Below are positions 1 through 64,000 of a stretch of 64,000 nucleotides of DNA, one piece after another. This DNA is from Thalia democratica. Taxonomy: Eukaryota. A program made the position numbers. How positions within the stretch are numbered: position 1 is the first letter of the stretch; every line of letters begins with the position of its first letter. Location of the stretch: contig OZ241827.1 in NCBI GenBank assembly GCA_965202585.1, forward strand, positions 77,872,001-77,936,000. Direction: 5' to 3'.

Positions 1-3000
1 TAAATGCGGACTAGACATGTCTTTAGAGGGAAATTCCCCAATATGCAAGTGTAGTTCGGGTTATGCAGGGACTGATTGTCGCAAAAGGAAGGTTTGTGAA
101 GACTTGCCGTGCAAAAATAAAGGAATTTGCCATTCACAAGCTGTTGAAAGTTTTAGGTTGTTGAAATTTAAAGTTGTTTTAGTTATTTCCTCGAATATTC
201 AATACTTATATTAATAAAAAAAGCTTAATCTGTTTTACAGATATGAATTTAATGTTTTTATGAACTAGTTCTTTGCTCACTTTTAGCAATTAGTAGTACT
301 TTACTTATGGGATATAAAAACCATTAGTTTTATCATTATCACAGATGCGAATGTAAAGAAGGTTTTGGAGGAGAATTTTGTGACGTCATATGCAAGGAGG
401 GGTTCACCGGAGTGAATTGTGACGTCATAATAAATAAATGTTTCAGTTACGATGAAAATTTTGCTTGCAACTGCTCTTTATCAAATGAAGGTAAGCTTTT
501 TTACTATGGATATTTGCTTTGGATGTAGTAATATGTAACTACAAGCAACAAACTAATTTTGACTGCAAACATATTCTAAAATTTTTAATATGTAAAAAAT
601 TTGCTGCGAATAAACGTAAAATTTGAAGTTTTCATGAGAAATGCTTTAGACACTTTTTTTTCATAATATGTAAAGTTTATTCAAAAAAAACTCTATGTTA
701 TCTTTTTAAGACGTTATTTACTAATATTAAACATATATGCTTTTAAAAGCTTAAGACTTTAAAATTCAACAGCAGTATTATAATCAACTACCATAGTATA
801 ATTTGTTTAATATGGATTCTTAAAGACGACTTTATCACTTGTTTATTAAAACTAATCCTAATGTTTAAATAGGGATGTATTTTTGTCACGCAATATTTCT
901 TTTTTTTTTATGTCACGCAAAAACTTATTAAATCTACTATTTATTTAAAAGTGATAATAACAACGTAATAAAATACTATTTATTAACTGTATGTGTAAAA
1001 AAATTATAAAAAAGTAGCATAAAAAGTACGTAGTTGAACTTGGAAAATTCATAGAAAAAAAAGCTTAAACAATTGTAATAGTACAAAATAGCTTATAAGT
1101 TCCAAGTTTAAAAATTTTAGCTGAAAATTCAAATCAACAAAATAATAATGATGCTAACAGGTTGCAAAACTATCCTAGAAAATCAGACCAACGCGAAGAA
1201 ATCATCATTTCCTTATTTAATCCTCATAATTGTCATTTTAATTGTCATAATCGTTGCCACCATAGCAACTGCAGTCGGCTGCTACGTAAGAAGAAGGCGA
1301 GGAAAAAAGATGCGAACCGGAAGTACTATTTCCACTAAAGAAAAGTTTTATTTGACACAACTGAAACACAGAGAAGGTTTGAATGGCTTACATTAATTAA
1401 TTTTCAAATTTAATTTTATATAAGTCTTTGAAGTTTAATTCATTAAAAGCAAAATATTAACGATCTATAAAATGACTTATTTCATAGATCACTCGTCAGA
1501 TGGAAACCAGTCGATTCCAAAGCCACCGATTCCTGCAAGACCGGTTGATTATCAGAGATGTTCAAGAGAAATTATTGACAGCATGGTTGAACAAGTAAAT
1601 ATAATTATTGTTATATATTCAGTTCTTAGTTTACAGTTTGCATACTTCTAATTACTACAATTTAACTATTTAATTATCTGCTTTTAAAAAATTTTCAGTT
1701 GAAAACCAAAAATGAAATCAACAATTTATCATTAAAAAAATTAACTACATGTTTTAAAATAATTTTCCAGGAGCTAAAGAACAGGAAACAGTCAAATGAC
1801 GTATTCGACAAAAGTATGACGTCATTCCAGGACAATGAAAAATTGACGTCATACCAGGATAATGGAAAGCTGACGTCATTGGCTTCCGATTCAACTTCGT
1901 TTCAGAAAATTCCCATGTCTTGGTCTGACTATGAGCACAATCATGTAAGTAGTATAATAAATAACACCAAAAATATTAGCTCAATTTGAAGTTGTTATTT
2001 CTGTTAATTAATTATTATAGTTCACACCTGTAAACTGACACAATGGTTATTATATTATTTTAACTAGAATAAAAAAAAAATACAATGTTTATATTTATAA
2101 GTATGATTAAATAAAATTTTAAGTTATTGTAAGCTTTCACTGACTGTTCATTAAAACTATAATAACTTTTTTAAGTAGATATTTAATTTCGTTTAAACAA
2201 AATGCTTCAACTAATTTTTAAACCATCACAGTTCAGCGGAAGTATATCTGGTTGTTCGTCTTACAGCAAAAGAACTCCGATCCCGTCTGCGAAATCACCG
2301 AAACTGTTCACCAGGATTCCCAGACTCCAGCAGCAGTCAGTTCACAAAGTAGCAAGCAAGCAGTCCATTGCAGAACAGCGTAAGTTTTATAACAGTAATC
2401 GAGTGGTAGTCAGGCTTAGACTGATTCTTTATTAACTTTTTCAGTGGACTTTCTTGTTTTATATATTATTTTAATACACTTTTCTCTGTATTTTTAGCAG
2501 TGTTTTAGACTCTAATAATAATAATATGATTTTTTCGGAAAACATTTTAAAAAATCCAATAGTTTTTTTTAAAGCTTTTTTTAATTTGAAAAACATGTCA
2601 GTTCTCACTTTTTAAAATTCTTATAATGTAAAATTTTGTTTAAGACTTGATCTCTTATCATGTATAATCGTTAATAAATTAATTCAATCACAGTTCTAAA
2701 ATATTAACAGTATGTTAGCTAGACGTAGATATACACTGATTTTGTTTTAATTTTTCAGTAAACCTTTATAATTTTTAGTTTTTCAAATTTTTAACATTTA
2801 TTTTACTTTATTGTATCTTTTGAAGAAATTTTTGATTCGTAACGTATTTTTATTACAAGATATACTCACAAGTTTAAAAATATTTAACATCTAATTTCAT
2901 TTCTAAACAAAGTTAAACAAATATTAAATCTTGATTAGAACATCTTTAAAATGTAAGTTTTGTAACTTTGTTTTTTTTTTCTCACTGTTTTCTTAACTAA

Positions 3001-63000: not shown

Positions 63001-64000
63001 AAAGAATGTTCTTAAAGTTTTACTAATAAACATTATCATGAGCATTTTTTCAAAGTTTTTGGTTTTGAATAACAAAAGGCAATAGCACTTTTATAATTTT
63101 GTTTTCATAGCAAATATTTCGAATAATTCGATAAAAATAGTTTTATAACAAGCCAAACCAAACAGAATAATAAAATTATTTTGACTTTAATACCCTTTGT
63201 TTAAAGACCTCACCTCTATAATATTCTAATATTCAAAAAATAATGTTGGTCTTTTTAGTAAATGAAATCTTTAGTCGCTCCGCTGTATACAATGAGAAAA
63301 ATCAATCTTTTCTTTACGAACTTGCGCTATGAAGTTTATTTTCTTGTATTTTCGATTTTAAATAAAATTTTTTGCTCACTTCCAAAACACTTTCAATTTA
63401 TCCTAGACCGTATTTATTTTTATAAAATCTTTTTTTTTTCTAATGTACTAAATAATTTATAAAATTTATAAATGTAAACAATTAGTGAAGTATTTTTTTT
63501 CAAATTTAAAAAGTATTTGATACTAAAAATCTTGACAAAAAAGTTCGGAACTAAACAAATTGGTTTCCCTAGTAGCATTATGTAAAAAAAAAGAATAAGT
63601 GACAATTTTTTTGGTTCTAAGTTCTTTGAGGTAAAACTACTAATTTAAAAACTGACAATGAGTTAGAAACGCGTCAGGTTTTAGTATAACTGACAATTAG
63701 ATGTCACACATGACTTTGCCACTTTGTAATTACTTTATACTAACAAAAATTTTCAAAAGTTACATTAAAATTGAACATTTTAGCAATGCAAAATCATTTT
63801 TAGTTTCAGTTTGTTTGTTAGCTTTAGTTTTATGAAAAATTATGAAATGTTATGAAATTAGTTTTAAAATTAGGTTGACCTCAGTAAAGTTATACATTAT
63901 ATCAAATAGTTTCTTGAATTTTTAAATGTTTTGCAAAAGTTTAACCTAGATAAAGTACAAGATATCCGTACTTATTATAAAATAATGGTTTTTAGTCCTA

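What the first reader, a model, noticed from the sequence alone, without database searches (positions are those of the whole stretch)
1..64000. Head-to-tail array of at least three about 39.75-kb Fat1/3-like units lacking promoter, signal peptide and first cadherin repeats
Seen: 1-24273 is repeated at 39781-64000. The junction where a Fat 3'UTR is followed within about 1 kb by mid-ectodomain cadherin remnants occurs twice (about 5.1-6.4 kb and 44.9-46.2 kb). Known: Fat-like genes are normally low-copy giant genes with 34 repeats. Inference: a partial tandem duplication of a Fat gene was amplified further, and a full-length parent should lie upstream. Even if one period is an uncollapsed haplotype, the decayed junction implies at least one real, old duplication.
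Basis: partly seen in the sequence, partly recalled or inferred. Interest (0 to 1): 0.65.

Follow-up and report, generated by a model that had tools for sequence, protein, structure and literature searches.

The report
Tandem truncated Fat-like cadherin gene copies
A 40-kb piece of a giant Fat-like cell-adhesion gene, missing its front end, sits head-to-tail at least three times as assembled, and the front exons of the copies are decaying: an ordinary partial gene duplication, large but not a new kind of thing.

Summary
The repeat is real. Window 1-24273 matches 39781-64000 collinearly, with 639 substitutions and 86 indels and a period of about 39.78 kb. There are no N.

Each unit carries, on the + strand:
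- about 25 recognisable cadherin repeats;
- one laminin-G domain split by an intron;
- EGF repeats, a TM segment and a cytoplasmic tail ending in a stop (4987-4989 and 44766-44768).

This is the FAT1/2/3 (Fat-like) domain order. Five of six full-length relatives scanned have 34 repeats, so roughly the first eight repeats and any signal peptide are absent from the unit.

The decayed cadherin remnants lie at 8150-8567 and 47930-48348, about 3.2 kb past the stop. They share a frameshift and a stop in both copies, so they are old.

Unit B has a private 32-bp frameshifting deletion and a TAA stop. Unit C probably has a private TAG stop. Tail exons are intact with pN/pS 0.29.

The best reading is a real partial tandem duplication producing 5'-truncated copies that are decaying from the front. 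Whether there are three units, or two units plus a haplotype mis-join, needs reads. The organism is unidentified. Interest is low to moderate.

The parts
1..4989 (+). 3' end of unit A: EGF exons (cores 2-151 and 346-489), TM exon inside ORF 1121-1396, cytoplasmic exons, last exon 4480-4986, stop 4987-4989
   Evidence: ORF translations; the ORF listing end coordinate; tblastn of P0006 residues 3994-4081 and 4470-4505; copy of 39781-44768
4990..8149 (.). Junction spacer 1: 3' flank of one unit running into the next. AT-rich, with no coding similarity except a faint hit at 7767-7841 in a GC island
   Evidence: No HMM, tblastn or motif hits; GC profile and ORFs; no blastn similarity to the rest of the unit
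8150..8567 (+). Decayed cadherin repeat (8150-8381) and half-repeat exon (8451-8567) of unit B. Frameshift at about 8307 and in-frame TAA at 8448-8450, both shared with unit C
   Evidence: HMM hits 8206-8307, 8307-8381 and 8460-8567 in two frames; three-frame reading of both copies
12458..23001 (+). Unit B 5' cadherin exons (about five repeats, long introns). Private lesions: 32-bp deletion at 22039/22040 at an exon end, and TAA at 22348-22350
   Evidence: HMM hits; Pfam Cadherin 31.7 bits for 12860-13042; nucleotide alignment of B against C; codon comparison; exon chain
25294..37168 (+). Unit B central exons: 20 cadherin repeats, post-cadherin region, EGF-like stretch and first part of laminin G (large exon 35986-37168)
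   Evidence: Pfam Cadherin 47.9 and 62.9 bits and Laminin_G_2 31.4 bits; HMM hits; phase-consistent chain; P0006 residues 3434-3842
37430..39218 (.). Intron inside laminin G holding two MITE-like inserts (37430-37701 and about 38985-39218) with terminal inverted repeats and 41-bp tandem arrays
   Evidence: Tandem Repeats Finder; inverted repeats I1 and I5 and direct family D1
39314..39529 (+). Second part of the single laminin-G domain
   Evidence: Pfam Laminin_G_2 profile positions 67-125, E 0.0025, 18.7 bits, below the 22.9-bit cut-off. It complements profile positions 1-61 at about 36.9-37.1 kb
39730..40271 (+). EGF-like exons of unit B
   Evidence: Pfam EGF 26 bits and JAG1-like_EGF2 30 bits; tblastn of P0006 residues 3933-4081
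40937..44768 (+). TM exon (40937-41152) and cytoplasmic exons of unit B, with the stop at 44766-44768
   Evidence: Hydrophobic stretch followed by RRRR in the translation; no Pfam family for the tail exons; the ORF listing end coordinate
44769..47929 (.). Junction spacer 2, the copy of 4990-8149
   Evidence: Self-alignment; 46 substitutions and 7 indels in the first kb
47930..48348 (+). Decayed cadherin remnants of unit C, with the same frameshift and stop as unit B plus copy-specific differences
   Evidence: HMM hits 47979-48089, 48089-48163 and 48242-48346; three-frame reading
52240..62780 (+). Unit C 5' cadherin exons. Intact where B is broken (61679-61818 and 61990-62206), but with a probable private TAG at 60269-60271 where B has TGG

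Best explanation
The window shows a real head-to-tail tandem duplication of the 3' three-quarters of a Fat-like (FAT1/2/3-type) giant cadherin gene. The unit is about 39.78 kb, and the assembly shows parts of three units.

The duplication breakpoint fell inside the gene, in or before roughly its seventh or eighth cadherin repeat. Each downstream unit therefore lacks the signal peptide and about the first eight repeats, and starts with orphaned exons.

Those orphan exons decayed long ago, because their lesions are shared by both copies seen. The next five or so repeats now carry fresh lesions private to each unit and evolve close to neutrally. The 3' two-thirds (20 repeats, laminin G, EGF, TM and tail) is still open.

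The units are therefore best read as unprocessed, intron-bearing, 5'-truncated pseudogene copies. They are either young or kept similar to a functional parent by gene conversion.

Shown: the repeat, the gene content, the truncation, the lesions. Inferred: the order of events, gene conversion, and lack of expression.
For: REPEAT AND PERIOD. There is no N between the copies.

GENE CONTENT
- Six of 10 large ORFs hit Pfam Cadherin at E<=0.01, two of them above the gathering cut-off, and Laminin_G_2 scores 31.4 bits.
- The second half of laminin G, the EGF repeats and a further cadherin hit appear.
- All 66 of 66 HMM hits and all 1064 of 1064 tblastn HSPs are on +.

TRUNCATION
- I count 20 repeats from 22.9 to 36.2 kb and 5 upstream of that, by my own reading.
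- Five of six full-length relatives scanned have 34 repeats and P0006 has 32.
- Exon 12462-12638 aligns to P0006 residues 885-942, the end of its repeat 8. That leaves 24 detected repeats in P0006, and I count 24 in the unit.
- Nothing cadherin-like lies in 4990-7700.
- Exon 12462 begins mid-repeat. Its partner half-repeat exon, 8451-8567, is preceded by an in-frame TAA.

OLD SHARED DECAY. The frameshift at about 8307 and the stop at 8448-8450 are present in both copies.

PRIVATE LESIONS
- Unit B has a 32-bp deletion at an exon end.
- Unit B has TAA at 22348 where C has CAA, and unit C has TAG at 60269 where B has TGG.

SELECTION. In the 5' exons pN/pS is 0.62, with 26 nonsynonymous and 11 synonymous changes. 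That is not different from neutral (p=0.13).

JUNCTION. It is seen twice in diverged form, with 46 substitutions and 7 indels in 5001-6000. It cannot be a single assembler join.

ABSENCE OF A GAP. Ko et al. [quoted passage not shown] There is none here.
Against: - No reads, depth or flanks are available, so the third unit could be a haplotype mis-join.
- Tail exons are under purifying selection: pN/pS is 0.29, 15 of 29 changes are nonsynonymous against 78.5% expected, p=0.0013.
- Coding cores hold fewer indels than the window-wide rate predicts: 3 observed against 9.15 expected, p=0.019. The copies are therefore not long-dead pseudogenes.
- The contrast between tail and 5' exons is not significant by itself (Fisher p=0.13).
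- A phase-consistent 42-exon chain runs through 25294-44768 without a firm lesion, so a functional shorter product is not excluded.
- The TAG in unit C sits one codon beyond the HMM-aligned part of its repeat. I call it exonic because unit B has an 82-codon ORF there, but an intron is not excluded.
- Repeat ordinal positions rest on one relative at about 30% identity. More distant relatives map inconsistently.
- The organism and its heterozygosity are unknown.
Confidence: 0.58

Rival explanations
1. Only one partial duplication is real: a full-length parent followed by one truncated copy. The assembler threaded the two haplotypes of this locus one after the other, switching between the similar bodies of parent and copy. 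On this reading the two junctions are alleles and unit B is a chimera.
For: - Copy divergence of about 2.6% substitutions with Ts/Tv 1.07 lies within what highly heterozygous invertebrates show between haplotypes. That comparison is recalled, not tested.
- Divergence varies tenfold along the copies, from 0.9% at 12.4-19 kb to 4.4% at 19-24.3 kb, as heterozygosity can.
- The reading neatly explains constrained tails (alleles of a working parent, pN/pS 0.29) alongside near-neutral, privately broken 5' exons (alleles of a dead copy, pN/pS 0.62).
- Ko et al. 2022 (passages) report that heterotype false duplications persist in modern assemblies, mostly on the same scaffold.
Against: - There is no gap or N anywhere in the window, whereas false duplications were most often gap-separated.
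- The path requires a precise switch inside a 97%-identical body.
- The block at 20.7-24.3 kb, at 92% identity with 10-43-bp indels, is high for alleles.
- The tenfold mosaic is equally what gene conversion between paralogues gives.
Confidence: 0.25
2. The units are working genes. Each encodes a shortened Fat-like cadherin (about 20 repeats, laminin G, EGF, TM and tail) from a unit-internal promoter and a new first exon downstream of the decaying exons, making this a lineage-specific expansion of short Fat-like receptors.
For: - The 3' two-thirds of unit B chains into 42 phase-consistent exons without a firm lesion.
- It includes ORFs of up to 419 aa in 27%-GC DNA.
- Tail pN/pS is 0.29 (p=0.0013), and coding cores are depleted of indels.
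Against: - No signal-peptide exon was found. Candidates in 23-25.3 kb are low-complexity AT-rich ORFs, and one of them (23490-23672) is hit by a 43-bp indel between the copies.
- The first intact exon after the lesions starts mid-repeat.
- No expression data exist.
- Four links of the chain are doubtful: 29264-29484, 31151-31214 and 42864-42913 have no homology support and negative scores, and 40004-40048 (positive score, 15 supported codons) I doubt from its low-complexity peptide. Any of them could hide a frameshift.
Confidence: 0.12
3. There is no duplication at all and the whole repeat is an assembly artefact of a single-copy gene.
For: Nothing specific, only the general frequency of false duplications.
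Against: - The join of the 3' flank to mid-gene sequence is present twice, with 46 substitutions and 7 indels in its first kb.
- Old lesions are shared by both copies just downstream of it.
- A single spurious join would occur once, and two haplotypes of a single-copy gene contain no such join.
- There is no N.
Confidence: 0.04

Closest known systems
Fat-like cadherins (vertebrate FAT1/FAT2/FAT3, Drosophila Fat-like/Fat2)
   Same: A long run of cadherin repeats, then one laminin-G domain followed by EGF repeats, a single TM segment and a cytoplasmic tail. Katoh 2012 (PMC3583642, passages) gives this topology for FAT1-3 and Fatl. The nearest full-length relative, P0006, has the same order, and the unit is collinear with it from its repeat 8 onward.
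   Different: Each unit has only about 25 recognisable repeats against 34. It has no signal peptide or N-terminal repeats, and it carries stops and frameshifts in its 5' exons. It is present as tandem partial copies rather than as a single gene. Identity to any full-length relative in the library is only about 30% over the large exon.
Unprocessed (duplicated) pseudogenes from partial gene duplication, such as the ROCK1 partial duplicate 'Little ROCK'
   Same: A genomic copy that keeps its introns, covers only part of the parent gene and accumulates disabling lesions. For the ROCK1 case I saw only the search listing and the start of the abstract of PMC2867973.
   Different: Here the copies are head-to-tail and adjacent, the unit is 40 kb and is seen up to three times, it is truncated at the 5' rather than the 3' end, and most of each copy is still open.
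Heterotype false duplication in genome assemblies
   Same: Two adjacent copies that differ by a few percent, on one sequence (Ko et al. 2022, PMC9516828, passages).
   Different: There is no gap between the copies. The junction itself is duplicated with divergence, which a single mis-join does not produce. Read depth, the defining test, could not be run.

Membership tests
Fat-like cadherin (FAT1/2/3, Ftl) | Long array of extracellular cadherin repeats | tested here: met
   Pfam Cadherin in 6 of 10 ORFs at E<=0.01, with 47.9 and 62.9 bits above the 28.8-bit cut-off, and 31.7 bits for 12860-13042. My own HMM gives 42 hits at E<0.05, all on +.
Fat-like cadherin (FAT1/2/3, Ftl) | One laminin-G domain followed by several EGF repeats between the last cadherin repeat and the TM segment (Fat/FAT4 type: two laminin G) | tested here: met
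   Laminin_G_2 profile positions 1-61 at about 36.9-37.1 kb (31.4 bits) and 67-125 at 39.3-39.5 kb (18.7 bits, below cut-off) form one split domain. EGF hits lie at 39722-40306. No second laminin G was found among the ORFs scanned. The family definition comes from PMC3583642 passages.
Fat-like cadherin (FAT1/2/3, Ftl) | Full complement of about 34 repeats with an N-terminal signal peptide | tested here: not met
   About 25 recognisable repeats plus 1-2 decayed per unit, against 34 in 5 of 6 relatives scanned. No N-terminal homology lies in 4990-12400. No signal-peptide predictor was available.
Fat-like cadherin (FAT1/2/3, Ftl) | Single TM segment and a Fat-type cytoplasmic tail | tested here: inconclusive
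   A hydrophobic stretch followed by RRRR is read in the translation. One short tail match to P0006 residues 4470-4505 has 47% identity over 36 aa, E 3e-5. There is no Pfam family and no atlas hit.
Fat-like cadherin (FAT1/2/3, Ftl) | Uninterrupted reading frame | tested here: not met
   Shared frameshift and stop at 8.3-8.45 kb. Unit B has a 32-bp deletion and a TAA. Unit C has a probable TAG.
Tandem partial gene duplication / unprocessed pseudogene | Copies keep introns and lie head-to-tail | tested here: met
   Collinear same-strand repeat with a period of 39780, and a multi-exon structure in every copy. This holds for the assembly as given.
Tandem partial gene duplication / unprocessed pseudogene | Copy covers only part of the parent gene | tested here: met
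   See the repeat count above. The first intact exon begins mid-repeat. The parent itself is not in the window.
Tandem partial gene duplication / unprocessed pseudogene | Disabling lesions and relaxed constraint | tested here: inconclusive
   Met in the 5' exons: lesions, and pN/pS 0.62, p=0.13 against neutral. Not met in the tail: pN/pS 0.29, p=0.0013. No firm lesion lies in 25.3-44.8 kb.
Tandem partial gene duplication / unprocessed pseudogene | Not expressed as a functional protein | not testable with these tools
   No transcript or read data are available.
False (heterotype) assembly duplication | Assembly gap between the copies | tested here: not met
   0 N in 64000 bases. The criterion comes from PMC9516828 passages.
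False (heterotype) assembly duplication | Half read depth and haplotype-specific single-copy k-mers over both copies | not testable with these tools
   No reads are available.

The most novel reading that the evidence does not exclude
The units are not dead. Each still-open 3' two-thirds (20 cadherin repeats, laminin G, EGF, TM and a tail under purifying selection) is expressed from a unit-internal start. On this reading the lineage has built a tandem family of N-terminally shortened Fat-like receptors by repeated partial duplication, and the decaying front exons are merely the discarded part.
Probability: 0.12. Interest if true: 0.5.

Novelty: new member of a known kind. Interest (0 to 1): 0.28.

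Why it matters
For annotation, the locus would be mis-called as several Fat-like genes or one monstrous fusion. Knowing that the units are 5'-truncated and partly broken prevents a false gene-family expansion.

For biology, it is a clean example of staged decay after partial duplication of a giant gene: old shared lesions at the orphaned front, fresh private lesions behind them, and a still-open rear. It could be used to study gene conversion and pseudogene ageing if the array is confirmed.

It does not open a long-standing question. Partial tandem duplicates are common.

Tried and rejected
DEAD ENDS
- The search for homologous proteins with lengths 'longer' found nothing, and it covers only 735-2095 aa, too short for Fat proteins.
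- The 'near' search gave one unnamed 383-aa fragment at 79% identity, P0149, so the organism stayed unidentified.
- The protein atlas gave no usable hit for the tail exon.
- Rfam at gathering thresholds and ARAGORN found nothing in the window.
- Four literature searches turned up no report of a tandem partial Fat or Fat-like duplication. One search ('fat-like cadherin' plus 'tandem duplication') gave one paper, an unrelated protocadherin review seen as a listing only. One search ('fat cadherin', 'partial duplication', 'pseudogene', at least two terms) listed 10 of 359 papers, none of which held 'fat cadherin'.

ANALYSES I CORRECTED
- The first dN/dS run was contaminated by intron sequence merged into one segment. 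It was replaced by clean exon cores.
- The first exon-chaining run inserted tiny phase-fixing exons and false exons in the GC-rich MITEs. It was replaced.
- Even one search is a home-made predictor. It shows that a consistent chain exists, not that the chain is the true mRNA.

READINGS I REJECTED
- Cadherin remnants at 5.1-6.4 kb: none found.
- A complete gene per unit with its 5' exons in 5-12.4 kb: no homology there, and the exons that are present are broken.
- A gene on the minus strand: the only minus ORFs of 90 aa or more are antisense to GC-rich exons or to the remnants.
- A human origin: the window is 26.8% GC, and the nearest full-length relative is about 30% identical.

NOT DONE
- The closed collections viral contigs and metagenome contigs were not searched.
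- Genome contigs holds prokaryotes only and was not used.
- No supplements of papers were seen.
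Full report
THE OBSERVATION

The window is 64000 bases, 26.8% G+C, and has no N. Self-blastn shows that 1-24273 recurs at 39781-64000 on the same strand in four collinear pieces:
- 1-20605 = 39781-60409 at 97.3%;
- 20696-22038 = 60415-61781 at 92.5%;
- 22040-23685 = 61815-63452 at 95.2%;
- 23688-24273 = 63417-64000 at 94.0%.

A gapped re-alignment gives two HSPs with 639 substitutions and 86 indels. The period is 39780 start to start and 39779 between the two stop codons.

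The differences look biological. Ts/Tv is 1.07. Of the 86 indels, 65 are 1 bp and 35 lie in homopolymer context, and the rest run up to 43 bp.

Divergence is a mosaic:
- 1-5 kb: 3.4% in non-coding DNA;
- 5-12.4 kb: 2.5%;
- 12.4-19 kb: 0.9%;
- 19-24.3 kb: 4.4%.

WHAT THE UNIT ENCODES

The coding signal is all on the + strand.
- A cadherin-repeat HMM that I built from 1313 repeats of the retrieved relatives gives 66 hits at E<10 on six-frame ORFs of 20 aa or more. All 66 are on +, and 42 have E<0.05.
- tblastn with the 26 relatives of at least 4000 aa gives 1064 HSPs, all on +.
- Recalled cadherin motifs occur 13, 5 and 11 times on +, against 0, 0 and 2 times on -.
- Pfam finds Cadherin in 6 of 10 large ORFs at E<=0.01, two of them above the gathering cut-off, and Laminin_G_2 at 31.4 bits at about 36.9-37.1 kb.
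- A second Pfam run finds the rest of that same laminin-G profile (positions 67-125; 18.7 bits, below the cut-off) at 39.3-39.5 kb. It also finds EGF domains at 39.72-40.31 kb and another cadherin at 12860-13042.

Downstream come a hydrophobic segment followed by RRRR (exon 40937-41152) and tail exons without any Pfam family. The stop is at 44766-44768, and its copy in unit A is at 4987-4989.

The order is cadherin repeats, one laminin G, then EGFs. Katoh 2012 gives that order for FAT1, FAT2, FAT3 and Drosophila Fat-like, and says Drosophila Fat has two laminin-G domains (PMC3583642, passages).

The nearest full-length relative in a 1.84-billion-protein library is P0006 (4667 aa, about 30% identical over the 419-aa exon, which maps to its residues 3434-3837). 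It has the same domain order. The only close relative found is an unnamed 383-aa fragment at 79% identity (P0149). The organism remains unknown. I do not take the window for human.

THE UNIT IS 5'-TRUNCATED

By my reading of the exon peptides and HMM coordinates, unit B holds:
- 20 cadherin repeats between 22.9 and 36.2 kb;
- five more between 8.46 and 22.8 kb, separated by long introns, including a 6.5-kb one at 13.05-19.6 kb;
- one decayed repeat at 8150-8381.

With the same HMM, five of six full-length relatives scanned show 34 repeats and P0006 shows 32.

Exon 12462-12638 aligns to P0006 residues 885-942, the end of its eighth detected repeat. That leaves 24 detected repeats in P0006, and I count 24 after that point in the unit. 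The unit is thus collinear with roughly repeats 8 to 34 of a standard Fat-like protein.

More distant relatives map the repeats inconsistently, so the ordinal assignment rests on P0006 and on the count.

Between the stop codon and 7.7 kb there is nothing cadherin-like by any of four tests: the HMM on ORFs, a stop-tolerant HMM scan, tblastn at E<1e-4, and motifs. There is also no DNA similarity to the rest of the unit. A GC island at 7.7-7.85 kb gives only a faint hit, iE about 20.

They lie at 8150-8567 and 47930-48348.

STAGED DECAY

1. The remnants are old. Adjacent pieces of one repeat lie in different frames, with the shift at about 8307. The following half-repeat exon (8451-8567) is preceded by an in-frame TAA at 8448-8450. 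That exon ends like other exons of this gene, just after the conserved glycine, and its partner half is exon 12462. Both lesions are present in both copies.
2. The next exons carry lesions private to one unit.
   - Unit B lacks 32 bp at 22039/22040. Unit C there has an ordinary exon end followed by gtaata, and the next exon starts in phase 0, so B is frameshifted.
   - Unit B has TAA at 22348 inside the calcium-binding motif, where C has CAA.
   - Unit C has TAG at 60269 where B has TGG, within what is an 82-codon ORF in B. This one is probable rather than certain, because it lies one codon past the HMM-aligned stretch.
3. A home-made exon-chaining programme (codon log-odds, GT/AG, phase consistency, homology bonus, no exon under 36 bp) finds 42 phase-consistent exons from 25294 to 44768 that pass through every confident block. 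Four links are doubtful:
   - 29264-29484, 31151-31214 and 42864-42913 have no homology support and negative scores;
   - 40004-40048 has a positive score (11.2) and 15 supported codons, and I doubt it only from its low-complexity peptide.
   In the 5' third, the programme gets past the lesions only by inventing introns that cut out conserved residues.

SELECTION (NEI-GOJOBORI ON CLEAN EXON CORES; TESTS)

- Tail, A against B: 419 codons, 14 synonymous and 15 nonsynonymous changes, pN/pS 0.29. That is fewer nonsynonymous changes than neutral expectation (p=0.0013).
- 5' cadherin exons, B against C: 442 codons, 11 synonymous and 26 nonsynonymous changes plus two nonsense differences, pN/pS 0.62. 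That is not different from neutral (p=0.13).
- The two sets do not differ significantly from each other (Fisher p=0.13).
- Coding cores hold 3 indels against 9.15 expected from the window-wide rate (p=0.019).

The copies have therefore spent much of their divergence under constraint, or have been homogenised against a constrained copy. The front exons look released.

REAL OR ARTEFACT

The junction of the 3' flank to mid-gene sequence occurs twice. There are 46 substitutions and 7 indels between the two copies of its first kb, and old shared lesions lie just downstream. A single spurious join would occur once, and two haplotypes of a single-copy gene contain no such join.

Sequence alone cannot decide whether the window shows three units, or two units with the two haplotypes threaded in series.

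Points against the mis-join reading:
- there is no gap, and Ko et al. 2022 found false duplications most often gap-separated (PMC9516828, passages);
- the block at 20.7-24.3 kb has 92% identity.

Points for it:
- it explains constrained tails next to broken front exons;
- 2-3% divergence can be allelic in some invertebrates (recalled).

I put about 0.58 on the array as assembled and 0.25 on the two-unit reading.

COMPARISON AND NOVELTY

The unit works like, and descends from, a Fat-like cadherin. It fails two membership features of a functional one: the full complement of repeats with a signal peptide, and an uninterrupted frame.

It fits the well-known class of unprocessed pseudogenes born by partial duplication. 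Four literature searches found no report of a tandem partial Fat-like duplication. The library is incomplete, and the species is unknown.

I rate it a new member of a known kind, of low to moderate interest. The boldest reading not excluded is a tandem family of expressed, N-terminally shortened Fat-like receptors (probability about 0.12).

LEFT OPEN

The repeat count and intactness rest on exon-by-exon evidence.
- Read depth, flanks, transcripts and species identity were not available.
- Supplements of the papers were not seen.

Noticed in passing
window 25294-44768 (exon chain of unit B): Third-position GC varies from 0.09 to 0.71 between exons of the same gene, while flanking introns stay at 0.15-0.33 GC. 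The GC-rich exons are 34893-35391 (GC3 0.57), 35986-37168 (0.71), 43836-44053 (0.54) and 44265-44768 (0.69). Most cadherin exons have GC3 of 0.1-0.3. No explanation was tested.
   Followed up: partly
window 37430-37701 and about 38985-39218: Two MITE-like inserts lie in the intron that splits the laminin-G domain. Each has terminal inverted repeats of about 25 nt (88-92% complementary) and an internal array of a 41-bp unit, with 4.4 and 3.6 copies. They are GC-rich and fooled the first exon prediction.
   Followed up: partly
window 12400-19000 against 52180-58800: A low-divergence tract of 0.9%, against 2.5-4.4% on either side, covers two cadherin exons and the 6.5-kb intron. It could be a gene-conversion tract between units or a region of low heterozygosity. 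The boundaries were not mapped finely.
   Followed up: no
window 7700-7850 and 47480-47640: A GC island (0.41 in 150 bp) in the otherwise AT-rich spacer gives a very faint cadherin-HMM hit (iE 17-24, HMM positions about 49-83) in both copies. It may be an even older remnant of the preceding repeat.
   Followed up: partly
P0149: The only close relative of the 419-aa exon in the 5.8-billion-protein set is an unnamed 383-aa fragment at 79% identity from a 1453-nt contig. Several 440-526-aa library proteins cover the same exon end to end at 30-41% identity, which suggests this large exon is conserved as a unit in related, poorly annotated organisms.
   Followed up: no
window 4702 against 44480 region (last exon): A 3-bp in-frame indel (one acidic residue) is the only length difference between the two copies of the last coding exon.
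   Followed up: yes
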